Positions 45,880 through 59,991 of a stretch of 64,000 nt of DNA are shown here, in pieces (position 1 is the stretch's first letter; every line of letters begins with the position of its first letter). The notes below the pieces were generated by a model. The model made no database searches and had not been told where the DNA came from. It saw only the letters and a program-made list of their open reading frames with translations. The position numbers and the translations under genes are program-made. Location: the NCBI GenBank assembly GCA_010093815.1, contig ML996567.1; one strand, written 5' to 3'. The DNA is from Pseudovirgaria hyperparasitica (lineage: Eukaryota).

Positions 45880-45975
45880 ATCCGTTTGTCCATAGTTACA
45901 TGGGAAAGCTTGGCGCCCGATGCACGTCTGTGCCACCAACACGCGTTTTTATATGTAATTAACATTTTACGGCAT
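45880..45975 (+). repeat. Left terminal inverted repeat
   Basis: ATCCGTTTGTCCATAGTTACATGGGAAAGCTTGGCGCCCGATGCACGTCTGTGCCACCAACACGCGTTTTTATATGTAATTAACATTTTACGGCAT is the reverse complement of 57331-57426 except one C/T. Confidence 0.96.
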
Positions 45976-46079
45976 TATCGCCGCACCACACGTATATAGA
46001 GTCTATAACTATATAATATAGTATATAAGAGTTAGTATATATAATATTTAGTATTTTTAACTTACTAACGTGTGTATAT

Positions 46080-47180
46080 ATAGTACCCTAGGGCGTTATC
46101 TATCCTGATTCCGTATATAGATAAATCGACTTCCTCCTATAACACGATATACCTATTAATAAGATTATCGCTATTACTAAAGTTAGTAAGAATATAGTAT
46201 ATAGGACGAGGTTTAACCTTAAGACGTACGGATAGAGAAATAAACCGTAGTTAACGCGTTATGGTCCACCTCGTTAACTAAGTAATTATATAATATAATA
46301 ACTACTTAAGAGACTACTTTGTAAGGGCTAGCTATACCTTAATAAGATAGCTAGATAGATATACGAAGAGTTTAATCTTACTATATCTAAATAGCTTCTA
46401 TCTAAAGAGTTATCCAAGCGAGGGTAGAATTATAAGCTATTAAAATATATTAGTAGTACGTGCTTAGAGATAGCGCGTACTTTATACCTTAAGGATATTA
46501 CGGAGCTACTAGTAGACTTATATATCTTCTTAGATAAGGTTATTTTTAATAAGAAAATTAGATAGAGGCGTCGAGCTAGAGTACTAAAAGGATAGACTCT
46601 AACTAAGATTAGTACTCTTAATTAAGGATCTATATATAGCGTATATAGAGCTATTACGGCTAATAGTTTTATCTACTATTAGATAAAGGAAGGTTATTTC
46701 TTAACGGATAAGTTCTATACCTAGCTATAAGTATACCTATTACCTACTCTCGAGGTAAAATACCCCGGGTATATAATAATAATTATTATAGATAATCTCG
46801 TACTTTATACGAACTAATAGATTAAGCTACTTATACTTAGCGCTAGCTATATTATATAGTATATACTACCGTACTTACCTAACTTTAATTCTATTAAGCT
46901 TATATAGGCGGTAATAAAGGTATAGATTCGTAGGTAGTATATCTAGATATATTAGTAATCTTAAACTTTTAAGGACTTTCTCTATATCGTATTTATATAT
47001 AGCTATACTAATTAGTAGGCTCTACGCTTCTTTAAATATACTATAGATAGGTACTATATTAATAAGATGCTCCGGTAGAAGGTAGTCGCTAATTTAGAGA
47101 GGTTTAGATAAGGTAGAGATAGTAGAGAGGTTACTAAAGTTAAGGAGATTAGGAGACTTTTTTATAAACTTATTAAGTAA
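46080..47180 (+). pseudogene. IS630/Tc1 DD34E transposase, RIP-mutated
   Basis: One frame from ATA(ATG) 46080: IFLD[E] (GAT 46533), [M]DN (GAT 46791), [P]PY[S]P[D]FN[P]I[E] (AAG for GAG at 46896), with exactly 34 codons between the second D and the E. Stops are TAA/TAG explicable by C>T/G>A. End coordinate approximate. Confidence 0.9.
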
Positions 47181-47339
47181 CTTACTCGTTACTAACTCGC
47201 CGATAAGTAAGTCGCTTAGCTAGCTAGTAATAGTCTATATATATATCCGTTTTAGGTACTATTCGTCGAGTATATAGCCTTAATATATAAATATATACTC
47301 CTAAATACACTCTAAGAAATACTATACTATCCCTATCTA

Positions 47340-48210
47340 AATACTAGTTATACTAGTTATAGTAAACGCCTAGAGCAAGGACGCCGCCTTACTTATCTTA
47401 AGTTACTTCTTATACTTATAAAGGTATAGACGTGCGTCTAGTAGGATACTAAGTAGAATACCTACTATCTTCGCGGCTTTATAATAAGTAGTTCTAGACT
47501 AAGTTATCTCCTTAATATAGCGGTAAGTATAGTAGTTATTATCTATATATAGTCTTAATTCGTGTATTCTAGCCCTCGTCTTATCGTAAGTCTCTATCTC
47601 CTTACGCTATTTAAGAGCTAATAGTACTATATCCGCCTAGTAACGCCCTAGTTATACTAGACTACTAAAGGTTTCTATAACTCGTGTCTAAGGGGGTATT
47701 TTATAACGAGTCTTACGAGTTAGCGAATAATTTAAACTATAAGTAGATAGAGGACGAGGTTAAGGTTAAGGTTAAGGAAACGTAGGTATCTATATAGGTA
47801 TTATAGGATTAAATCTATAATACTATAATTCTATCTAACGAAGTAGTTAAGTATATACGAGCTTATCTTTATTATCTTAATAATATCTTACCGCCGCCTC
47901 CTTACGCTTAATTATTATCTATCTTATCTACTTATCTTAAAGCCTCGTATTCCGCTCCTTATAATCTAACTTAGCCTCCTTATATCGTAATCTCTTTATT
48001 TTAAGGCGCTCGAGTATAGAAGTAGTACTTCCGTTAACGGCGGTTAACGAGGTACTAGTTCTACTACTAGTTCGAGACTTCCTTAGGCACGGTCGAGCGA
48101 TAATCTTATAGAATAAGTCTATTAACGGCTTATCCTTAGTTACACCTTAAATACTATTAATAATATTATTAGCCTATAGCTCTAAGATAGTCTTATCTAC
48201 CTTATAGTAG
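47340..48210 (-). pseudogene. Transposon ORF2, 3' half (coiled coil, QP-rich linker, C-terminal domain)
   Basis: Frame continues from 56254-57139 once the retrotransposon and one AGTAG copy are removed (..CTC TAC TAT AAG GTA GAT AAG..). End approximate. Confidence 0.7.
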
Positions 48211-48448
48211 TGTAAAGAGTAAAGACGTAGGATAGTAGTCTAACAGTTTATAGAGAGACATAGGAATGTATTTATAGAGTAATCTCACTCTTATACGAGG
48301 TTAATTCCTAACGAGTAGGAATTGGTTTATATAGTCCACTTATATAGTGACCTTGCTTAACTTAGCTAACTTAACCTAGCTCTGGCCACTACGTGGCTAT
48401 ATAGATTAGAATAGTCTATATAGATCTATTATGGTTCCCGTCCTAATA
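48211..48448 (-). repeat. 3' LTR
   Basis: TGTAAAGAG...CCGTCCTAATA. Colinear with 56016-56253; ~20 differences by manual alignment, all transitions. Confidence 0.95.
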
Positions 48449-48465
48449 ATATCCTTCTTCTTTTT
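48449..48465 (-). other. Polypurine tract
   Basis: Minus strand AAAAAGAAGAAGGATAT directly abutting the 3' LTR. Confidence 0.8.
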
Positions 48466-48927
48466 ATACTTCGCCCTAAAGTACTTAAGTATATATAATT
48501 CTAAGTCTCTATAATCTATCGTGTACCTATACATCTATAACTAAGTTTCTATAACGTTATAACTATCCTTAATATAGGTGAACTTAAGATTCTAGTTCAC
48601 TTTTATTAGTTTATACACGCGCTTATCCCTTACTTTATAGCTACTACCTAGGACACGTAATCGCTACTTTAGTCAAGTATATATTTAGCTTCGCTCGCCT
48701 TTAATTTTATTCTCTAGTATATCTACTTCGCTCTTAAGGTAAGTTATTAATTTATATACTATCTTCCCTAGTTTAGGTTTAGAAGGGTCTATAGTAGTCT
48801 ATTCTTATTAGAACCGGTCCTATATAACCTATTCGCGTTATTACGGTTACTGATTTAGCTTTATTAATCGCCGTTAAGGGTAGACGAATATTCCTTCCTT
48901 AGATCTCTAGCTAACGTATATATATAG

Positions 48928-50240
48928 ATGTCTAATACTAGTCCTATCTCTAAGCCTACCTCCTCCTCTTATAAGACTCGCTCTAAAGGTATCGCCTCCT
49001 CCCCGGCCACACCAGCTAAGAAGCCTACCTATTACGGTGGCACGAAGGCGCGCTCTAAGTTAGAGAAGAGAGTAGCTAGGGCTACTACTACTACTACCTC
49101 TACTACTAATATAGCCACTAGTTACTCTAATCTAGGTAATCCTAGTACTAAACTTATAGATAAAGTGGTCGTAGGTTCCCCTCTCGCTCTAAAGCGTACG
49201 CCGCCTACTCTACCTCCTCTAGAGGATAAAGAAGATCTCGTCATAGACGATAATCGCGAGCCCTTACGCTCACCCACGCCGCCGCCTCGCCGCTCTTCCT
49301 TCCGGTCTAATATAGACTAATTTAGTCGCTCTAGGTCCTTTTAGGACCTTAATATTCGCTCTAAACCCTAGCCTACTAATAATAAGGCCTAGGTCGCCGA
49401 GGATACTAAATGTAGTCGCGGTTTACGCCATAGGAAAACGGCGAACTACGGTTCGATATACTATAAGTATATTAAGGGCTATACGGCCGGCTCTAAATAT
49501 CTCTTTCGCTCTAACTCTAGTATTAGCTACTACTCTACTAACCGCGACGGGCCTATACGCCCTATCTTTACTCTATCTACCCGCTACTACCGCTATACTA
49601 TAACTAGTAAGACTTATCTATAGGTGAGTATAATAGGCTATCTTAATCTAGTATAATCTAAAGTGGTCCGCGCTAATATATTCTTAGGTTCCTATATATA
49701 TATAAGATATATATAACGACCTTCGCGTCCGCGAGACCCTCGGGGGTCCTTATAGCCGCCTACCTACTATATAGAGGGAGTTTAGGGAGCGCTATAAGCT
49801 CTTCCTAGAGGTTATTAAAGTATAAGTTATGAGCACGTTAATTATTTTTAACATCTATTAATTTTTCTAGCCGCCGCGAGATCCCTAGCGCCTAGGCTAT
49901 CTATTCTAGGGAGTCTATTCTAGCTATAGAGGCCGTAGAGAGAATTCGCTCTATCCCCCCCCGTCCATCTCGCGCTACTAATAGATCTTATAAGAGGTCT
50001 ACTATTTCTCCCTCTAAGTCGCCTCGTAAGAGGGTATATATTCCCTTCTAGATTATTCTAGATCATGTTAGCTAACTTTAGACCTAGTCGCTACGCTCCG
50101 GCGCTTAAGGCTCTTCCCTCTAGACTCTAACGGATCGGGTTATTACTCTAGAGGCTAAGGTTATCGTCCTCCGCCGCCATGTTATATAGTTAGAGAGGAC
50201 TACGCTAGAGGTTAGGACGGATAATAAGATAGAGAAGTAG
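48928..50240 (+). pseudogene. Antisense, intron-containing accessory gene of the retrotransposon (Cys-cluster + basic + coiled-coil protein)
   Basis: ATG 48928; frame continues past RIP-type stops to 49623. Introns 49624-49687 (GTGAGT..GCTAAT..TAG), ~49820-49870, 50034-~50081 (GTAT[G]T..GCTAAC..TAG). Confidence 0.7.
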
Positions 50241-50699
50241 CTCTATGGTTCTAGCTCTATATGTTGGCTCTATACCTGGCTCTATATATTCTAGATCTAC
50301 TATAGGTGGTGCGCGCCGGCTCTATTTACCTAGCTTTTATCCGTTTTAGTCCTTTTTAGACCGTTTAGATACCCGTCGGCCAGTTTCTAGTAATTTAATT
50401 CTTAACTTAATGATATTATGTGTGCGCTCGCTTAGCTTATGACTATCGGTTTCTATATTCTAATTTTCCTTGAGTTACCTAAGTGTAGGCACCGCATATA
50501 AATTAGTTTATCTCTATGAATTCTATTAGAGTACCCGAACTAGTAGTCTAGTAGTTATCGGTTTAGATACTCTAACCTTTTATATTTCGTATTAAGAGTT
50601 TAATTCTATGGTAGGGTACCTTTTTTTAGGTTCTTGGTCCTATATTTTTCTCGTGTATAATAGTCCGTATTAGTCCATTCTAGACTCTTCTATATTATT

Positions 50700-53600
50700 C
50701 TATTATGGTATGTCGCGTCGCGTTCCTAAAATGGTTATTTACGCTTTCTTCGCGTCTAGTAACTATATAACGCTTAAATTATAGGGCTACTATATAGAGT
50801 TTTCCTAGTGCGCGTCTGGATTTCCTAGTTTGGTACTTCGTTCTCTACGGTATTCTTCTTCTTTTTATAATAACCGCGACGTCGCTATACTTATATTAAT
50901 AATACGCTATTCTATATCTTTTGCTTATACGCAGCTATTATAGAACTTAAGATATATACCGCTAGTTCCTAGGTGTCCTCGTCCTTAGTATAGTCCTTCT
51001 AACGGATTCTATATTTCTAAACACCGTCTTTATCAATCCTATATTCGATAATATGGTCCACTTCGAACACGTCTAGTCTATCTTAGGGTATAATAGAGTG
51101 TAACTACACGTTCGTGCGGCTATATATATTAGGTCGAAATCTTTCGAGTAGTAAGACGTAGAATACCTTATAGATTCTTATATCGCTTCCTAAGTTAAGC
51201 TCGTAGGCTCTTATACTAATATAACGTTTAATTCGGAAGGGACCAGCTATTTTATAATCGAGCTTCTTATTTACTCGTAATATTCGTATATTATAGACGT
51301 TAAGAAGGACCTTATCGCCCTCCTTATACGTCTAATCCTTAGTTAACCTATTATAGTACTTCGTATACGAGTCGTTTACTTATTGGATTATAGTATAATA
51401 GTTACGTGCGGTTTCGAAGATTTTAATCGCTAATTCCTAAGCGTGGACGTTCACGTCTATTATTCGATTAAATTAGACCGTCTAAGGCTTAAAACCTATC
51501 CTTAGACTATATCTAAGGTTCGCCTAGAAAGGTATAATACCTATCGTGCTATAACGACTATTATTATATACGAACTCTACTATACTTAGTAGAGAGGCCT
51601 AGTTATTCTACTCGAAATTATAGAATACGCGTAGGTAGGCCTTGAGCGTCTAGTTCTATCGCTCTATCTAGCTATCCGTCTAAGGATAAAATACTATAGA
51701 TATATTCCTATTTATACTTACTATTTTATAGAATAACGTCTAGAATTTAGACGTGAAGGTACTTCCTCGGTCTATAACGATCCTTTTTAGTATACCATAG
51801 ACCTTAATAATCTCGTTCTAGAATACCTACGCTAGTTCTTTAGATGTAATCGTCTTCCATACCGGGATGTATCTAGATATCTTTATAAGTCTATCCACGA
51901 TAATAAGAATAGAATTATAACTTATTCTAAGCATCTCGCTTAGAGATAAGTTAACTATAAAGTCTATAGTAACGTCTTCCTATATAAAGAGGAGGGCTGA
52001 AAGAGGCTGTAAATTCCTATATAGCTTATGCCTAGGGGCCTTCGTTCTTTAATAAATTAGATAAGTAGCTATCTATTCTTTAATATACTTAGATATATCT
52101 TTCTAAAAATAGTACTAACGAATTAAGCTTAGGGTACGTATATACCTAAAGTGTCCTACTAGGTTAGCGTTATAGTATTAGCTAACTATATTAAATCGCG
52201 CGTTACCTATCGGTATATAGTACTTTCTATTATAGTAAAGTAAGCTATCCACGAAGGTCTACTTATAGTCTACTTTAGTCCGTAATAACCTATCTTACTA
52301 TATTTTACGTAACTTTAAAACTATTAGGTCTATCTTCTATAGATCCACGATTAACTAGGCGAGGTTAATTAGATATTTATACTGGGCATTATCGCCCTTC
52401 CCGACAGCGCTAATAAACGGCCTACTAGGAACTTCGGTACCGCGTCTTTGGTTACCGGCTTCGGTCTTAGAGATTCGATTACCGGTATCGATATTAGCAT
52501 CTCGCTAATTACCTAATAACTTAAAATCCAACCTCGTCCTTAAGAGTTAGGCCTATAGCTACTCTAGGACCCTATAGCTACTATAATCCTAGGCGCCTTC
52601 TTTATAGTTAGGTCTTCTTAATATTCTATTAGCTAGGTTTATACTTCTAGGTCGATAGTAGATTATAAAGTAAAAGTTTATAAGCTACTTAGCCTATTAG
52701 ACCTATCGACGGTTTAAAACTATCGTGCTTATAAACCCCTTTAAGTTATAGTAATTAGTTAGTAACTCGACGTTATATATAGTACCTTTAAGATAATATC
52801 ACTACTATTTAAATGACTCTACTATTACTAGTAGCTCTTAGTTATAGATAGTATATCTAGTCTTAATATTAACTATTTTGCGTAAGAAGAACGTAACTAG
52901 ATACTATTAGACCTTTTTAGACTTAGTTAGTCTAGGCTAGAAGAGAATACCTAAGATTATAAATCCTAACGCGTCGGTTTTAACATGGATAGATTTAGTT
53001 AGGTCGAAGTACACTAGTAATAGGGTAGTTATAAATGCCTCTTTGATTTTCTCGAAGGAGGCCCTTTCGCCTTCTAATAATTCTATAGGCTGCGATTTAA
53101 TATTACGCTATTTCTATCTACCATGGACCGTAATAGATAAATCTATAGTAGTAGTACACGTGTTAAGCGGTGCTACTAGCCGGGAGAAATGCTTAACGAA
53201 TTTTCGGTAGTAATTAGTAAATCTAATAAAGACACGTATGTCTCGAACTAATTTTAGTTTAGGCTAGTCCACGATAGTAGCGACCCTATCCCTTTCTATA
53301 GTTATACCTTAATTAGTAATAACGAAGCTAAGGAAGTTAACGTGGTTCTAGTAGAACTTATATTTAGATAGCTTAATATATAGCTTATGTTTTTCTAGCC
53401 TATCTAGGACTACGCGTACGTACTAGATGTGTTCTTCTTCGTTATTAGAGAAGATAAGGATGTCATTAAGGTATACGATGCACATCGTATCAAGTAGGCC
53501 TACTAGCGCGTTATTAATGTACGCTTAGAAGGTTCCTAGCGCGTTAGTTAGTCTAAAAGGGACTACTATATACTCGAAGTGTCTATAACGGGTCCTAAAC

Positions 53601-54600
53601 GCCGTTTTCTACTTATCGCCCTTCTTAATATATAGGCGGTAGTAGGCGTTACGTAGATCGAGCTTAGTAAAGATCTTCACACACCCTAGTCTATTAATAG
53701 ACTCGGAGATAAGAGGTAGTAGGTAACAATTCTTTCACATAATATTATTTAGGCTATAGTAGTCAATACATAGACGGAGACTCCTATCCTTCTTCTTTAT
53801 AAAGAGGATTAGAGCTCCGGCTAGGGATATACTAGGCCTAATCTATTCTCGCGTAAGGTTCTTTTCGATATATTCTCGGAGGACCTATAGCTCGGGTTCT
53901 AATAGAGGGTAGATGGGTCTATATAGGGGTTATTAACCGTCTTTAAGGTTAATAGTAAGGTTAGTAGGTTAGTATTAAGGTAATTCGGACGAGTCGATTA
54001 CTAACGCGATATATTAGTATATTTTATACTAATATAGTAGGTTTTCGTCTACTTTAATACTAAGCTCTCTATTTTAAGTAAGTAAGAGAACGTAGATAGC
54101 GGAGATTATCTTTTTGTAGTCCTTCTAGAATTATTCGTCGTCGACTAGCTATACTAGGTTCTATTATAGTAGGTACATGCGCTAGCTAGCTGTTTTCTAG
54201 ATGAAGTCTAGTTTCGGGTTATATTTTTCGAGCTACGGTATACCGAGAATCATATTAAAGGGACTATCTACCACGATAAAGGTTAAGTAGTAGGGTTTCC
54301 ACTTCCCCCCGCTATCCTAGATACTATATTTAATAGTATAGATACCCTACGATTTAATAGGACCATTAATACTATAGAAGGTAGCATCTATTAGTGCTTA
54401 AATATCGACGTTAAGTTCTCGTGCTTGTTAAGTCGATATAACGTTAGTAGCTAAACCGCTATCGAGCATTACGGTCTAATATTATCTATAAGAGACCTTG
54501 ATGGGCCTAGTCTATAGTTTAATATACTAGTTAGCTAGTTATCTCTCTATTTTAGTTATACCTATAAGTCGCGAGGGTTCCTTATAGGCAGTTAGTTTTT
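50700..54600 (-). pseudogene. pol polyprotein relic (protease, RT, RNase H, integrase, chromodomain)
   Basis: VMLDSG ~54460; CIVYL[D]DILIFS ~53465; [E]TDA[S]GF ~52970; F[H]P[Q]TD[G][Q].ER ~51670; IAGPFRI ~51240; VFEVDHIIE..KYRIR[W]KDY..EDT[W]E ~51000. 3' end approximate. Confidence 0.92.
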
Positions 54601-55974
54601 TATATTATATACCGGGTAGTTAGGCGCGATGTATCCCGGCTACTAATACTTATAGTATATAACTAACTTAGTATCTATATTAGTATTTAGTGGTTTCCCT
54701 AAGCGGTACTTAGGTGCTATATGGCCTATCCTACTATAGGTATAGTAGGTAACTTTAGGTCGTTTATACGAGTCGTTTCTCGCGTCTTAATATATCGACT
54801 AGTAGAAAGATCCGCGGTACGGGCCTCGTCTTCTCGAGTTCGTAGAGTAGTAGCGCCCACGAGGTATTCCGCGCGATCTATTACTAAACCGGTCCTCTTT
54901 AGATGATTTTATATCGGATTAGATTAATAGGGATAGTCGTGCGCCTATACGACGTTAGTTATTCATTATACGCTAATATTATTCTACGAGATTCGCGAGT
55001 ACCTAAAGGTTAGTAGGGATAGACGTTATAAGGTTAATATATTTCTTTACGCTTAGGTTAAGGGACCTTTTAAAGTCGTCGTATTATTAAACTATATAAT
55101 CTTCCTTAGCTTCTCTCTAAAGAGGTCGGAGGTATTCGAGAAGTTATAACGGGGATTATCTCTCTCGCTATTAAGTCTTAAAGATATAGCTCTAAGCCTA
55201 TTCGCGTCGCTCGGCTCTATCGCCGAAGTATTAAAGAAGGAATTCAGTGAACGTGTCCTAGTTATACGTATCCTTAGGGTGTTTAATTCGATGTACCATC
55301 TAACGTTTAGATGGTGTTAGGTCTAGGTAGTTCTATATAAACCTAATCTTATTACTATCGTTCGTGAATAGGTGGAAGAATCGGCTATACTAGTAAGCCT
55401 ATTTATAAAAGCTCCTCCTAGTTTTACCGTTAAAGTAAGGTAGTTTCTTAGACTAAGGTAACTAGGATAGTAATAGACTTAGTTAGACTATTTCGGCTTA
55501 AGTTAATCCATATTAGTATAGATTAGTTACTACTAGTACTAAAGCGCGTAGTGCGGCTTTAAGTCTAGCGGTTCGTCCTCACGCTTTATTAAGTTTATAA
55601 AGTTATTACTTAAGCTAAGCCTAATACTACCTCTCCGTGTATAGCTTAGTATATACGTCGTTATAAGGCGTGGTTAACGTTAGTTAGTTCTAACGAATTA
55701 ATTTATTAACGTTAATAGGGTCTGGTCTTATAGTAAGGATGGGTCTAGTATAGTATAAACTAGACCGCGATAGAGTATAATGGACTCCTTCCTTATTATC
55801 TAGGTAATCTTCTACGGTTATATAGAATACCGTACTAGTTATTAGTATGATAGTCTATAGGGTATACTTATTAGTAGAGGTGGTCGTAGGGAGACTATTC
55901 TCTTCATTTAGATTTAGAGAGAGTCTCTCGTGTAAGGTAGTACTACGGGTATTATAGCGCGTAGTAGGAGCTAT
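54592..55974 (-). pseudogene. gag relic with CCHC zinc knuckle
   Basis: ATA(ATG) 55974 in frame with TAA 54594-54592; [C]YK[C][Q][Q]PG[H]IAP.[C]P near 54615-54660. Confidence 0.8.
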
Positions 55975-56015
55975 CTCTATAAGCTACTATCGTACTATAT
56001 AGAGAGGAATTAAAA

Positions 56016-56253
56016 TATAAAGAGTAAAGACGTAGGATAGTAGTCTAATAGTTTATAGAGAGATATAGGAATGTATTTATAGAGTAATCTTACTCTTATA
56101 CGAGGTTAATTCCTAACGAGTAGGAATCGGTTTATGCGGTCTACTTATATAGTAACCTCGCTTAACTTAGCTAACTCAACCTAGCTCTAGCCACTACGTG
56201 GCTACATGGATTAGAATGGTCTATATAGGTCCGTTATAGTTCCCGTCCTAATA
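56016..56253 (-). repeat. 5' LTR
   Basis: TATAAAGAG...CCGTCCTAATA, RIP'd version of a TG..CA LTR; contains a minus-strand TATATAAG box. Confidence 0.95.
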
Positions 56254-57139
56254 AGTAGAGTATTCTATTAGATAATATAATCTTATAGTACTAACCTTAG
56301 TAGTTTATATACGTCGCCTTACTATACTAGAGCTTACTCTAAATATTATTAATAATGACTTCTCGGTCACGGCCTCGCTATCTTCGCTTCTCCTATAATT
56401 TAAATAGCTATTTTAAGCGTCCCTTAAGGTTTGGATCTATAGATAACGATACTAGACTAGTAGAAACTATACTAGTAAGTAGTAATAGCGTAGGAGACTT
56501 CGGATTAGATACTATAGCCTTCTTACGTCCTAGTAGCTAATAAGACTTATAGATAATAGTATTCTTAAAGGTAAGGAATATAGCCTCTAGTAGATCCTTT
56601 CTTACTAGGCTATAGATCTTATTAAGGAAGGTAAGAAGCTTATTCTAGTTATCTAGACTCTAGTCTAGAAGTATTAACTATTTTCTAGTACGACTAGATA
56701 TTCCGAGCTTTATAGTAAAGCCTTAAGTCTTAAATAGCTAGTTATTAGTACTAAGAGCCTTATTAATTAACTACTAAATCTCCTCCTTATATAACTCCTT
56801 CTTAAACTTATACTAGGCTTCTATCTTTAGTAATATAGCCTTAATAATCTTTCTAAAACCATCTACTCTAAGTTACTAATTTATATAGATAGACTATATT
56901 ATCTTATTAAGAGCCGCGTTATTATCCTATAGATTCTTCTTCTCCTCCTCCTTAACTATATCTCTATAAACTAAAGTAGAGTTATTAGTATTATTAGGTA
57001 TATTACCTAGTAAGGCTAGAGGATTACTTAATAAGGGTACGTTAGAGAGTACTAGCGGTATATTTTTATGCCTTACCGCTATCTTCGTAGCCCTTAATAC
57101 CTTATCTATACTATACTAGAGCGCCTTCGACGTAGATAT
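56254..57139 (-). pseudogene. Transposon ORF2, 5' half (ends in Cys-rich motif at the insertion point)
   Basis: ATA(ATG) 57139 is in frame (807 nt) with codons CTC TAG TAT AGT AAG GCG ACG TAT ATA AAC at 56332, which back-correct to L-Q-C-S-K-A-T-C-x-N. All stops are RIP-type. Confidence 0.7.
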
Positions 57140-57330
57140 ATATAGCTATAGTCTAGAAGGTGGTAGTAGAGGTTCTATTAAGTTATTCTATCCGAATTAA
57201 ATACCTTTACGCTACTTAGGAGATATAATAGATAGTGTAAAATAGTTAAAAAAATACTAATATATGGCTAATATCATATAATACTAATATATAATAGGTA
57301 TTTTAATAGGTATATGAGTATTCGTCGACG

Positions 57331-57426
57331 ATGCCGTAAAATATTAATTACATATAAAAACGCGTGTTGGTGGCACAGACGTGCATCGGGCGCCAAGCTT
57401 TCCCATGTAACTATGGACAAACGGAT
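57331..57426 (-). repeat. Right terminal inverted repeat
   Basis: Reverse complement of 45880-45975. Confidence 0.96.
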
Positions 57427-57923: not shown

Positions 57924-59991
57924 CTATGTCGCGAAGCCTACTCTGCGACCAGTCGGTGCGGTGGTGGCGCCAGAGGCCATCCCGTCAAGCATGTTGTCAA
58001 TGCCATCGAGGTTCAATTGGCCTCCCTCGAGGAGCTTCTGATCGATATCCATCTCTTCCTGTACTATTATTTCGTCATGCTCTGCCTCTCGCGCAAAGAG
58101 TATTCGTCCTCGTTCGTGAGTATTCGTGTTCTCGGTCAAAATGAGCAAGCGATGTTCCGCGACGACCAGTAAGTCCCGTGGACTTGCTGGTCTAGCCTTC
58201 GCCGCTGGAACGTCGAACTGTTGTATGCCATTGATGTATTCACCACGCGTGTCGATGCCTTCAACGCGGCTGAGCCCAGGCCCATGGAGGGAACCTGATG
58301 AGCCACTAGCACTACGAGCCCAGAATTGTGCGAGGTTGGAAATACGACATACGTATGTTCCATAACGAATGACAACCGAATCTTCAGGTACGCCACCACT
58401 GGCAGACACAAGGCTTGCCACCGAAATGCCACCTCGCGCGACAGGACCTATAGGAATAGAGTGGTCTTGGAACAGATTCTCTTCTCGTGTCCGCCGCGTA
58501 TTCGGTGTCATGGGAGCCAAAGCACGAGAACTGCGTGGCTTCTGACTACCAGCTACAACTTCTGATCCAGATACTGCCACTAAGAAGCCGCCGATGGCGA
58601 AAGTGGTGTTGTCAACTCGTTTTGTCGCGGAGGTGCGAGAAGCATTCGAGCCAGTATGATCGATATCCCAGACACCCCATTCGCCATCTGCCAGTAGGGT
58701 GATTATACTACGTCCTCCTGTTGCCCATTTTGCATCAAGTATTCGCTTTCGCTGTGCAGTAGCCGGTGCGTTAATACTGCCCGTCTTAGGTACTTCAAAT
58801 CCAGTATTAAATGAGGCAACCCATTCGCCAAGGCGGCTTATGGACTGCTCTGGCGTGAGTAATTCTTCTGCTCGTACTACGCGCTTGCTATCCAGCGGCG
58901 TTCTGAATGGATCGTAGACCTTGATGCATCCTTTGCTGTCTGCGACAAGCAGTTGCATGTGTCGTGTTGCCGGAAATGTGTTTGGACTGAAAGCAACGCA
59001 TACAGCTGGACTGGGCAGATACCTCGTTTGGCAGGGAAATATTGGAGGCGCGCTTTCTGGCAAGACGCGTTTCCCCTGGCCCGAGGCCAACGGAAGGCGA
59101 AATATCTGCAGAATGCCGGAAACGTCGGCAGAGTGCGAGGCGATGATGAGATCCCATTCCACCTTTTGTCTAGCAGACCTAGGAGCTATAGCTTCATCGA
59201 TGTCGAGCATGTCAACGTCCGACCGAGAGCCTCCAAGCAAAGAATGCCGTGGTGTCCACGTCATTGCTACACCACCAGGTATCTGTGCATGGCCATATTG
59301 GCCGTGTATCACAGCCATCTCCTCGCCCCATTTTGAGGCGGTCTTGCTTGATTTTGCGGCAGCCTTTCTCGCATTGGAGGGTGGAGAGATGGGAAGTGAA
59401 ATTACACGAATACTGCTGTCTACAGATGCCACAGTGAAGACGACCCGATCATGAAGTATCTGTGGTACTTGATCCTTGGTGACACTAGTTCCTGCGGATG
59501 GGAGCCCGGGGATGGCTATATGAAGGACCTCTGAGGGAATGGCGAGGTCCACGTGCTGTATTATGGATGGAACTGGGCTTTGGGCGTCGAGCTCCTCTTC
59601 ATCTGATTCAAATTCCGCATCTTCGAATGCCTCCAGCCGTCGAGCTTCTGCGACTCGATTGTTGTCGTCGACTATGTCATTTTCCACCGCAATAGCGTCG
59701 CCTTGTGTGCCATTGGTCTTTGCCTGCCTCTGGTTCGTCTTTGACGTCTCACTCGATTGCTTCAGCCGTCGACCACCTCTCCACAATATCCGTACACCAG
59801 AAGTATGGCCATAGATTATGATGGTCGACCCATTCGGCGCCTTCTTGGGATATATCTGAGCCGTGTGGACGCGATGTGGAAGCTCGTAGCTGGTGACAGG
59901 ATTAGCGTGCGGAGAAGATCAGCACCTCCGCTATGGGTTGGACAGACCTCAACAGTGCAGTCTTGCCTTTCTTGAAGACCGTGGGCTTCAT
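57924..59991 (-). CDS. NUP37: Fungal nucleoporin Nup37-like WD40 protein
   Basis: ATG 59991, one intron (~59947-59890). SYELPHRVHTAQIYPKKAPNGSTIIIYGHTSGVRILWRGGR resembles the Pezizomycotina Nup37 N-terminus (from memory); LLVADSKGCIKVYD; ILDAKW..LLADGEWGVWD. Confidence 0.8.

What the first reader, a model, noticed from the sequence alone, without database searches (positions are those of the whole stretch)
48480..50240. Chromovirus carries an antisense, spliced accessory gene with a Zn-cluster-like motif
Seen: ~2 kb lies between pol and the PPT. On the strand opposite gag-pol are a TATATAA-like box (~48490), possible leader introns (GTAAGT 48739; CTAAC..TAG ending 48927), ATG 48928 and three internal introns. 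Back-corrected protein: S/T/P-rich N-terminus, C-x2-C (TAC TAT AAG TAT, ~49459) ... R-C-x2-C-x6-C-L-Q|V-P (49582-49693), basic SPSKSPRKR, and a terminal coiled coil (TDRVITLEAEVIVLRRHV). Established: sense-strand introns are purged by retrotransposition, whereas antisense introns survive; extra antisense ORFs are known mainly from plant LTR elements. Inference: a retrotransposon-encoded nuclear regulator (trans-activator, silencing suppressor or copy-number control) resembling a degenerate Zn2Cys6 protein.
Basis: partly seen in the sequence, partly recalled or inferred. Interest (0 to 1): 0.8.

Follow-up and report, generated by a model that had tools for sequence, protein, structure and literature searches.

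The report
Dead antisense gene inside fungal retrotransposon
A mutation-riddled fungal jumping gene carries the remains of an extra, intron-containing gene on its opposite strand; extra genes in this position and orientation are already known from a few plant and fungal elements, and the proposed zinc-binding motif cannot be shown in this copy.

Summary
A RIP-mutated Ty3/gypsy chromovirus lies on the minus strand (LTRs 48211-48448 and 56016-56253, TSD AGTAG). About 2.45 kb separate its chromodomain from the PPT.

On the plus strand there is a plausible 4-exon, about 373-codon ORF starting at ATG 48928.
- Its first 130 codons are open (2 of 1000 simulations).
- Its codon periodicity is stronger than pol's.
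- All 11 stops are TAA/TAG, as RIP makes from Gln/Trp codons.
- Contigs 80% or more alike (mostly under 99% identical) from two DNA runs of the same species label cover the whole region.

Intron 2 needs its acceptor moved to 49895.

The zinc-cluster reading is unproven. The "Cys" residues are Tyr codons now, the pattern arises by chance in about 8% of shuffles, and no homologue was found. In this copy's own pol, 4 of 6 conserved Cys are now Tyr, so the back-correction is possible.

Twelve of 84 metagenomic chromovirus loci carry real antisense, spliced ORFs with a Zn2Cys6-like Cys spacing plus a coiled coil. They show no detectable similarity to this ORF.

An antisense gene (brtn) in fungal Boty elements was published in 2011. 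Verdict: likely a real, dead accessory gene and a new variant of a known kind.

The parts
48211..48448 (-). 3' LTR of the chromovirus (238 nt; TSD AGTAG at 48206-48210)
   Evidence: Direct repeat with 56016-56253, 92% identical, all differences transitions. The matching 5-bp flank AGTAG lies at 56254-56258.
48449..48470 (-). Polypurine tract next to the 3' LTR (the minus strand reads ...AAAAAGAAGAAGGATA then the LTR)
   Evidence: Read from the sequence.
48471..48927 (+). Putative promoter and leader of the antisense gene. It holds TATATATAA at 48490-48498 and a candidate leader intron 48739-48927 (GTAAGT ... CTAAC ... TAG).
   Evidence: Signals are present. There is no codon periodicity here (chi-square 7.7). 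TATA-like strings are common in the block. This part is inference only.
48928..49623 (+). Exon 1 (232 codons, frame 1). It holds ATG, an S/T/P-rich N-terminus, and the Tyr-rich stretch with Y-x2-Y-x6-Y at 49585-49617. It has 5 TAA/TAG stops including the last codon.
   Evidence: First 130 codons open. Periodicity chi-square 62.6. Frame preferred by 45-83 bits over the others.
49624..49687 (+). Intron 1 (64 nt): GTGAGT ... CTAAT ... TAG
   Evidence: Sequence. It was the best-scoring intron candidate in the enumeration.
49688..49819 (+). Exon 2 (44 codons, frame 2, 2 stops). The frame is the least certain part of the model.
   Evidence: Composition favours frame 2 by about 5 bits over frame 0. 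An alternative model starts at 49707 in frame 0.
49820..49895 (+). Intron 2 (76 nt): GTATAA ... TAG. The donor is weak.
   Evidence: Frame arithmetic and enumeration. Not verified by RNA.
49896..50033 (+). Exon 3 (46 codons, frame 0, no stop). It ends in the basic patch SPSKSPRKR.
   Evidence: Frame 0 preferred by 26-35 bits over the segment 49872-50033, which includes the first 24 nt now assigned to intron 2.
50034..50087 (+). Intron 3 (54 nt): GTATAT ... CTAAC ... TAG. GTATAT is one RIP-type transition from GTATGT.
50088..50240 (+). Exon 4 (51 codons, frame 0, 4 stops including the terminal TAG): a heptad-like helix TDRVITLEAKVIVLRRHV...
   Evidence: Frame 0 preferred by 9-15 bits. Beyond 50240 the frame preference is lost.
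50903..55999 (-). RIP-damaged gag-pol. Pfam hits: RVT_1, RT_RNaseH_2, RT_RNaseH, Integrase_H2C2 (below cut-off) and SH3_Tf2-1. The chromodomain lies at 51067-50915. The pol frame has 77 stops in 1166 codons.
   Evidence: Pfam. Pol relatives. Stop count.
56016..56253 (-). 5' LTR

Best explanation
The stretch 48450-50900 is the 3' internal region of a Ty3/gypsy chromovirus that repeat-induced point mutation (RIP) has killed. On the strand opposite gag-pol it holds the remains of an accessory gene of about 373 codons in four exons.

Shown:
- The ORF signal.
- Its frame-specific composition.
- Its place and orientation.
- That the region belongs to the repeated family.

Inferred:
- The gene was transcribed from its own promoter just inside the 3' LTR, towards pol.
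- Its introns survive retrotransposition because they are antisense to the genomic RNA and so are never spliced out of it.
- The product was an S/T/P-rich, basic, probably nuclear protein with a C-terminal helix suited to dimerising. It would have acted on the element's own expression or on host silencing.

A Cys-cluster DNA-binding module is possible but not shown. In this copy the gene is dead, with 10 internal TAA/TAG stops.
For: Element anatomy:
- LTR pair, 5-bp TSD and PPT.
- RT, RNase H and integrase domains. Chromo domain at 24.2 bits.

RIP: TpA/ApT is 1.79-2.0 and (CpA+TpG)/(ApC+GpT) is 0.18-0.22 in the block, against 0.72-0.75 and 1.18-1.19 in the flanks.

ORF signal:
- The 130-codon open run is the longest in the block.
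- It was reached in 2 of 1000 simulations; 5 or fewer stops in 232 codons in 1 of 1000.
- Periodicity chi-square is 62.6 for exon 1 and 19.2 for the original exon 2-4 join, against 10-25 for pol and 5-8 for the adjoining untranslated parts.
- A position-specific composition model prefers the proposed frames of exons 1, 3 and 4 by 9-83 bits and of exon 2 by 5 bits. For exons 1, 3 and 4 this check is partly circular, because the model was trained on those segments; only exon 2 was held out.

Stops fit RIP of an intact ORF:
- All 11 are TAA/TAG, with Q=0 and W=0 in the translation.
- In pol of the same copy, 12 of 12 conserved Trp and 8 of 10 conserved Gln columns are stops.
- Stop density is 1 per 34 codons, against 1 per 15 in pol.

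Introns 1 and 3 have GT, a CTAAY branch site and TAG, and restore the frame.

Family membership: in two DNA contig runs of one study, contigs at least 80% alike cover all 30 bins of 48211-51100, and nearly all the differences tallied by kind (140 of 142 places in X1, 150 of 154 in X2) are transitions.

Precedent and analogues:
- brtn in Boty-like elements (citations seen in PMC8365987, PMC7264820, PMC4227169).
- Antisense spliced ORFs at the same place in 11 of 84 fetched chromovirus loci.
Against: No relative of exon 1 was found:
- 0 of 465 word-sharing candidates.
- 0 hits in 1.84 billion representatives.
- 0 in viral or metagenome contigs.
- Nothing for any exon in the 84 loci.
- Pfam: 0 families for the 4 exons.

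Other weaknesses:
- The N-terminal half is low-complexity S/T/P, which by itself lowers stop frequency.
- Periodicity is strand-symmetric, so the strand call rests on stop counts (5 stops, against 10-46 in the three minus-strand frames) and on intron signals.
- The intron 2 donor (GTATAA) is poor, and two alternative models fit almost as well.
- No RNA evidence and no unmutated copy was seen.
- The three closest pol relatives among the fetched loci (L078, L014, L063) have no comparable antisense ORF.
Confidence: 0.65

Rival explanations
1. The region is a long non-coding 3' internal region. The plus-strand 'gene' is then a compositional accident of a C+T-rich stretch that happens to be poor in stops.
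For: - No homologue in any search.
- Two overlapping plus-strand frames are both unusually open at 49316-49623, which points to composition.
- The intron 2 donor is weak and alternative models exist.
- TATA-like boxes are common in the block.
Against: - Simulations that keep the local dinucleotide make-up rarely reach the open run (2 of 1000) or the low stop count (1 of 1000).
- Three-base periodicity exceeds that of pol and is absent in the adjoining 48450-48927 and 50241-50900.
- The translation has no Gln and no Trp while all stops are TAA/TAG. This is the footprint seen in the RIP-damaged pol.
Confidence: 0.12
2. The ORF is real but is a transduced host gene fragment, or an old nested insertion, carried passively by this family. 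It would have no role in the element's life cycle.
For: [quoted passage not shown]
- The closest pol relatives fetched lack such a region, so it is a lineage-specific gain.
Against: - 0 hits among 1.84 billion representative proteins argues against a conserved host gene, though RIP and low complexity weaken that search.
- The region is covered throughout by contigs of sister copies.
- Several unrelated chromovirus lineages keep intact antisense genes at this same place, which suggests the position is used, not accidental.
Confidence: 0.15
3. What matters is the antisense transcript itself, for example pairing with the 3' end of gag-pol RNA to feed RNA silencing or to limit copy number. The ORF would be incidental.
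For: The gene is convergent with pol, and its presumed 3' end (about 50240 onwards) approaches the pol stop (about 50900), so transcripts could overlap (inference).
Against: A purely RNA function does not explain the codon periodicity, the frame-preserving introns or the RIP-type stop pattern.
Confidence: 0.08

Closest known systems
[quoted passage not shown] 2011, Virology 417:248). The paper is not held. I saw it only as cited and sketched in PMC8365987, PMC7264820, PMC4227169 and PMC5987419.
   Same: A fungal, chromodomain-bearing Ty3/gypsy element with an extra gene on the opposite strand between pol and the 3' LTR.
   Different: No BRTN sequence was available, so homology is untested. Whether brtn has introns, a Cys motif or a coiled coil I could not check. 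The present copy is RIP-dead.
Plant antisense aORFs between pol and the 3' LTR: maize Grande, rice RIRE2, Silene Retand with its TRP28 domain (passages read in PMC7264820 and PMC11963269)
   Same: Same position and orientation and a long pol-to-3' LTR region. The proteins are proposed to be nuclear or DNA-binding regulators. Function is unknown there too.
   Different: Different kingdom. Retand elements are described there as non-chromoviruses. No TRP28 or any other Pfam domain is found here. Intron content was not compared.
Unannotated antisense Cys-motif proteins of metagenomic, basidiomycete-like chromoviruses found here (loci L028, L029, L036, L037, L057, L058, L061, L064, L068, L083; named relatives are Scleroderma citrinum hypothetical proteins such as P0182)
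   Same: - Antisense gene just downstream of pol, about 340-370 residues.
- Starts near the 3' LTR and has an S/T-rich N-terminus.
- Contains a spliceosomal intron.
- Cys pattern, then a basic patch, then a long helix.
- The window shows the same order of features only if its TAY codons are read as TGY.
   Different: - No sequence similarity to the window's ORF: tblastn found nothing.
- A RIP-aware profile alignment was no better than codon shuffles: 298 of 500 shuffles scored as high.
- Pairwise tests gave 31 to 146 of 200 shuffles as high.
- The intron sits before the Cys motif there and after it here.
Gal4-type Zn2Cys6 transcription factors (Pfam PF00172); the spacing rule C-x2-C-x6-C-x5-12-C-x2-C-x6-8-C is recalled
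   Same: Small N-terminal Cys module, then a linker, then a coiled-coil dimerisation helix. This is the layout of the metagenomic antisense proteins and, hypothetically, of this ORF.
   Different: As encoded, the window has none of the six Cys and no Pfam hit. The candidate first and second triads are 28 residues apart, outside the canonical spacing.
HBZ of HTLV-1, an antisense-encoded, spliced basic-leucine-zipper protein of a retrovirus (recalled; antisense genes of HTLV/STLV are mentioned in PMC11963269)
   Same: An antisense, spliced accessory gene at the 3' end of a retroelement that encodes a basic nuclear protein with a dimerising helix.
   Different: An animal retrovirus, transcribed from the 3' LTR. 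No sequence relation. This is an analogy only.

Membership tests
Ty3/gypsy chromovirus (Metaviridae) | Two LTRs in direct orientation flanked by a short target-site duplication, with a PPT next to the 3' LTR | tested here: met
   238-nt LTRs, 92% identical. TSD AGTAG on both sides. Purine tract abutting the 3' LTR.
Ty3/gypsy chromovirus (Metaviridae) | Pol domain order RT - RNase H - integrase | tested here: met
   RVT_1 at residues 734-893, RT_RNaseH_2 and RT_RNaseH at 978-1104, Integrase_H2C2 at 1268-1321 (23.7 bits, cut-off 25.5), SH3_Tf2-1 at 1561-1621, all in one minus-strand frame.
Ty3/gypsy chromovirus (Metaviridae) | Chromodomain at the C-terminus of integrase | tested here: inconclusive
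   Pfam Chromo E 3.2e-5, 24.2 bits against a cut-off of 25.1, over the full profile, in a RIP-damaged sequence. All 11 aligned relatives carry PF00385.
Ty3/gypsy chromovirus (Metaviridae) | Primer-binding site next to the 5' LTR | not tested
   The sequence next to 56015 was seen but was not compared with tRNAs.
RIP-mutated repeat | TpA/ApT well above 0.89 and (CpA+TpG)/(ApC+GpT) well below 1.03 (thresholds recalled); differences between copies are C-to-T and G-to-A transitions | tested here: met
   Indices 1.79 and 0.22 in the element, against 0.72-0.75 and 1.18-1.19 in the flanks. Nearly all differences from matching contigs are transitions.
Antisense additional ORF between pol and 3' LTR (aORF-3R class of PMC7264820) | ORF on the strand opposite gag-pol, lying between pol and the 3' LTR | tested here: met
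   The ORF model 48928-50240 (+) lies between the chromodomain end at 50915 and the LTR at 48448.
Antisense additional ORF between pol and 3' LTR (aORF-3R class of PMC7264820) | Present in most copies of the family | tested here: inconclusive
   Contigs at least 80% alike cover all 30 bins of 48211-51100 in runs X1 and X2. Contig depth is not a copy number, and four single-contig joints that skip the region have short sides of 21-29 nt.
BRTN protein family of Boty-like elements | Sequence similarity to BRTN | not testable with these tools
   No BRTN sequence was returned by any search, and the paper is not held.
Fungal Zn2Cys6 binuclear cluster (PF00172) | Six Cys with spacing C-x2-C-x6-C-x5-12-C-x2-C-x6-8-C, and a Pfam match at or above 21 bits | tested here: not met
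   - As encoded there is 1 Cys in 373 codons, and that codon is CGT in most matching contigs.
- No Pfam hit.
- The motif exists only if three to six TAY codons are read as TGY. Its chance frequency is 383 of 5000 shuffles.
- The ancestral state could not be seen.
Metagenomic antisense Cys-motif family (alignment A3) | Detectable sequence similarity to the family profile | tested here: not met
   - tblastn found nothing.
- RIP-aware profile alignment scored 27.9 against a shuffle mean of 29.8.
- The Cys-triad sub-profile ranks the site 49576-49626 / 49585-49617 3rd to 4th of about 23,000 positions. Given 381 in-frame positions, that is about p 0.07.
Metagenomic antisense Cys-motif family (alignment A3) | Antisense position downstream of pol, with a spliceosomal intron | tested here: met
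   Same position and orientation. Introns are present in both, but at different places.

The most novel reading that the evidence does not exclude
Fungal chromoviruses of several lineages, this ascomycete family among them, encode on their antisense strand an intron-bearing, Gal4-like (Zn2Cys6-type Cys cluster plus coiled coil) DNA-binding protein. That would be a sequence-specific transcription factor owned by the retrotransposon, used to drive or tune its own LTR or to counter host silencing. The window's Y-x2-Y-x6-Y at 49585-49617 would be the RIP-converted second triad of such a cluster.
Probability: 0.25. Interest if true: 0.75.

Novelty: new variant of a known kind. Interest (0 to 1): 0.5.

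Why it matters
LTR retrotransposons are usually thought to need only gag and pol. Antisense accessory genes between pol and the 3' LTR are known from some plant lineages and from Boty in Botrytis, and none has an established function.

This window adds an ascomycete family with an orphan, multi-intron antisense gene. It also shows how such a gene can still be recognised after RIP, by periodicity, a stop spectrum limited to TAA/TAG, and an internal calibration from pol.

The larger point came from the comparison set. Many unmutated chromoviruses in root and soil metagenomes keep an intact antisense, spliced gene with a Zn2Cys6-like Cys spacing and a long helix. A profile search found 553 relatives. 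Of the 120 best listed, the four that carry a source's name are Scleroderma citrinum 'hypothetical proteins', and none of the 120 has a precomputed Pfam domain.

If these are DNA-binding regulators, retrotransposon-encoded transcription factors would be common in fungi, and they are easy to test.

Tried and rejected
- Own genome: none held, so sister copies could not be aligned directly.
- Earlier findings of the scan: nothing relevant.
- RNA evidence: no RNA holder listed. Runs X3 and X4 (same species label) laid 1 and 0 contigs. This says nothing about expression.
- Joints: four single-contig joints skip from about 48446-48466 to 50375-51038. Their sides are 21-29 nt, too short to count as deletion variants.
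- Hidden differences: only 40 of 160 differing sites were printed.
- Homology searches with exon 1, stops read as X: all came back empty. Exons 2-4 were tried only against Pfam and the 84 loci.
- RIP-aware scoring. Each T was allowed to have been C and each A to have been G, with a penalty. I scored against a profile of the metagenomic family and against single members. None beat codon shuffles. Basic-patch and helix sub-profiles ranked 76th and 70th or worse in frame.
- Extension of the ORF beyond 50240, a hydrophobic tail in frame 0: not supported by composition.
- TATA box as evidence: rejected because such strings are common in the block.
- Closest pol relatives (L078, L014, L063): no long post-pol region with an antisense ORF.
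- Several 'LTR pairs' at contig ends are probably assembly overlaps of permuted contigs. I did not use them.
- PDB sequence search with the A3 profile: only designed or viral coiled coils.
- AlphaFold model of the L064 C-terminal exon: the Cys part had pLDDT of only 57-67, so I ran no fold search on it.
- ESM Atlas structure rows had TM of 0.22 or less and were not used.
- Papers linking retrotransposon antisense genes to zinc clusters in fungi: none found. Only CC-licensed PMC papers and bioRxiv are covered. The Zhao 2011 paper and all supplements were unseen.
Full report
**What the window holds**

The window has about 50% G+C, except for a block at roughly 46-57 kb with 29-45%. In that block TpA/ApT is 1.79 and (CpA+TpG)/(ApC+GpT) is 0.18. 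The flanks give 0.72-0.75 and 1.18-1.19. This is the signature of repeat-induced point mutation (RIP).

Inside the block, two 238-nt direct repeats that are 92% identical lie at 48211-48448 and 56016-56253. They differ only by transitions and are flanked by the same five bases, AGTAG.

One minus-strand frame between them gives RVT_1, RT_RNaseH_2, RT_RNaseH, Integrase_H2C2 (23.7 bits, below its cut-off) and the Tf2-type SH3 domain. It also gives a full-length Chromo match at 24.2 bits against a cut-off of 25.1. Its best database relatives are fungal-type chromodomain pol proteins at 32-41% identity.

A purine tract abuts the 3' LTR at 48449. The chromodomain ends at 50915.

The whole block is itself bounded by 104-nt inverted repeats and holds a DDE_3 transposase remnant. 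The retrotransposon therefore sits inside an older DNA transposon.

**The observation**

On the plus strand, ATG 48928 opens a frame that runs 130 codons without a stop. That is the longest open stretch in the RIP block. With four TAA/TAG interruptions it continues to TAG|GTGAGT at 49621-49629.

Sequences simulated with the same local dinucleotide make-up reached a 130-codon run in any of six frames 2 times in 1000. They reached 5 or fewer stops in 232 codons once in 1000.

Three-base periodicity:

| Segment | Chi-square |
|---|---|
| Exon 1 | 62.6 |
| Original exon 2-4 join (exon 3 from 49871) | 19.2 |
| Five in-frame pol pieces | 10-25 |
| 48450-48927 (flank of the model) | 7.7 |
| 50241-50900 (flank of the model) | 5.0 |

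A position-specific composition model picks the proposed frame by 45-83 bits for exon 1, 26-35 bits for exon 3 and 9-15 bits for exon 4. These three checks are partly circular, because the model was trained on those segments. For exon 2, which was left out of training, the preference is 5 bits.

**Gene model**

Introns 1 (49624-49687) and 3 (50034-50087) have a good donor, a CTAAY branch site and a TAG acceptor.

A GT-AG intron 49820-49895 does. It gives 373 codons with 11 stops. A second model (exon 2 from 49707 in frame 0, intron 49820-49870) gives 375 codons, also with 11 stops. Its donor GTATAA is weak, so this is the softest part of the model.

All 11 stops are TAA or TAG, and the translation has no Gln and no Trp.

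**Calibration from pol**

The pol of the same copy gives a calibration. At columns conserved in at least 8 of 11 relatives:

| Residue in relatives | Columns | Window reads |
|---|---|---|
| Trp | 12 | stop in 12 |
| Gln | 10 | stop in 8 |
| His | 17 | Tyr in 11 |
| Cys | 6 | Tyr in 4 |

The ORF's stops are therefore what RIP would make of an intact gene. Their density (1 per 34 codons) is lower than in pol (1 per 15).

**Is it part of the element?**

No genome is held for this window. Two DNA contig runs from one study hold the element. At 80% likeness, 9591 and 3448 contigs were laid on 48211-51100. About a quarter were at least 99% alike, so most come from sister copies. They cover all 30 bins, and nearly all differences from the window are transitions. 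The region thus belongs to the repeat family and is not private to this copy.

The majority base at 49411 turns the only Cys codon into CGT. At 49588-49589 it turns the second Tyr of R-Y-Y-R-Y into Arg. Only 40 of 160 variable sites were printed. None of the 40 falls in the three candidate Cys codons of the 49585-49617 triad, so their ancestral state stays unknown.

**The zinc-cluster claim**

As encoded, the motif is Y-x2-Y-x6-Y.
- Such a pattern (Y or C) appeared in 383 of 5000 residue shuffles of the ORF's translation. It occurs 13 times in the six frames of the block.
- In pol, a Tyr of this copy at a conserved column goes back to Tyr 23 times, His 11 times and Cys 4 times out of 44. Cys is a possible but minority origin.
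- Pfam finds nothing in any exon.
- On the other side, the integrase C-x2-C-Q of the relatives reads Y-x2-Y-stop in this copy.

**Relatives and analogues**

Exon 1 has no detectable relative.

A pol-based scan gave 84 chromovirus loci. None matches the window's exons, and the three closest by pol have no such region.

Twelve of the 84 carry antisense-strand ORFs of two sequence families. In 11 of them the ORF lies directly downstream of pol. These are intact genes.
- In L064 an ATG lies 186 nt inside the 3' LTR.
- One GTAAGC...CTAAC...AG intron follows, and the product is about 370 residues.
- A GT-AG intron at this position was found in L029, L037 and L057; L083 matches L064 by eye; L061 shows a GTAAGT donor; L028 gave none.

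Their proteins show C-x2-C-x6(or 8)-C-x8-11-C-x2-C-x6-C, then a basic SPRGGEKRKK patch, then a long helix. AlphaFold gives the helix a pLDDT of about 95, the Cys part only 57-67 and the linker under 50.

Pfam Zn_clus matches are sub-threshold, at 14-16 bits against a cut-off of 21, in 4 of the 8 C-terminal or full-length members scanned. A profile search finds 553 proteins. Of the 120 best listed, the four that carry a source's name are Scleroderma citrinum hypothetical proteins, and none of the 120 has a precomputed Pfam domain. The nearest named ESM Atlas cluster is "Zn(2)-C6 fungal-type domain-containing protein" at 0.92, which is a lead only.

I tested whether the window's ORF is a RIP-damaged member of this family. 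Profile and pairwise alignments that allow RIP reversals score no better than codon shuffles. The Cys-triad sub-profile does place 49585-49617 third to fourth among about 23,000 positions in the block. For the 381 in-frame positions that is roughly p 0.07.

The resemblance is therefore one of position, orientation, splicing and, hypothetically, layout. It is not a demonstrated homology.

**What is known**

An antisense gene, brtn, between pol and the 3' LTR of Boty-like chromodomain elements of Botrytis and Sclerotinia was published in 2011. I could read only papers that cite it, and the paper itself is not held.

Plant Grande, RIRE2 and Retand elements have antisense ORFs at the same place. 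Proposed roles are nuclear or DNA-binding, and none has a proven function (passages).

My searches found no paper that links fungal retrotransposon antisense genes to zinc clusters. Those searches cover open-access papers and bioRxiv only.

**Verdict**

The observation largely stands and the ORF signal is more than chance. The best reading, at 0.65, is a once-functional antisense, spliced accessory gene of a chromovirus family, now inactivated by RIP. It would be a new, orphan variant of a known kind.

The Zn2Cys6-like reading is not supported for this copy by any direct test. It remains open at about 0.25, because conserved Cys became Tyr in this copy's pol and because other chromoviruses carry such genes at this place. 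Function is inferred, not shown.

Noticed in passing
window 45880-45983 and 57323-57426; 45984-48206 (+): 104-nt terminal inverted repeats (96% identical, not AT-rich) enclose the whole RIP block. A plus-strand frame inside hits Pfam DDE_3 (E 3.5e-7). This is a Tc1/mariner-type DNA transposon, and the LTR element inserted into it. Both ends are flanked by AT.
   Followed up: partly
L064:6732-7865 (-), L029:13140-14382 (-), L083, L058, L061, L036, L037, L028, L057, L068: A large, unannotated family of intact antisense genes with a spliceosomal intron, lying directly downstream of pol in metagenomic chromoviruses. The proteins have a Zn2Cys6-like Cys spacing, a basic SPRGGEKRKK patch and a long helix. 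A profile search found 553 proteins at E of 1e-3 or better; the named ones are Scleroderma citrinum hypothetical proteins. I found no description in print.
   Followed up: partly
L004:5918-6613 (-), L053:5377-5982 (-): A second, unrelated antisense ORF family downstream of pol. It has C-x2-C-x6-C-x8-C-x2-C-x6-C (complete in L053) followed by a coiled-coil-like stretch. Pfam Zn_clus does not hit it.
   Followed up: no
L008:6308-7012 (-): Another antisense 235-residue ORF with several Cys pairs in a contig that looks circularly permuted. Its place relative to the LTR could not be fixed.
   Followed up: no
window about 52200-52150 (-), integrase zinc-finger region: The conserved integrase C-x2-C-Q of the relatives reads Y-x2-Y-stop in this copy. 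Across pol, RIP turned 4 of 6 conserved Cys and 11 of 17 conserved His into Tyr, and 12 of 12 conserved Trp into stops. This is a usable internal calibration for reading RIP-damaged genes.
   Followed up: yes
window 47392-48087 and 56300-56995: These RIP-block pieces outside the LTR element show codon periodicity (chi-square 25.6 and 33.6). They are probably further coding remnants of the outer DNA transposon. Only the 45984-48206 frame gave a Pfam hit.
   Followed up: no
window 57924-59918 (-): A 664-codon open frame in the normal-GC flank just right of the RIP block, presumably a host gene. Not examined.
   Followed up: no
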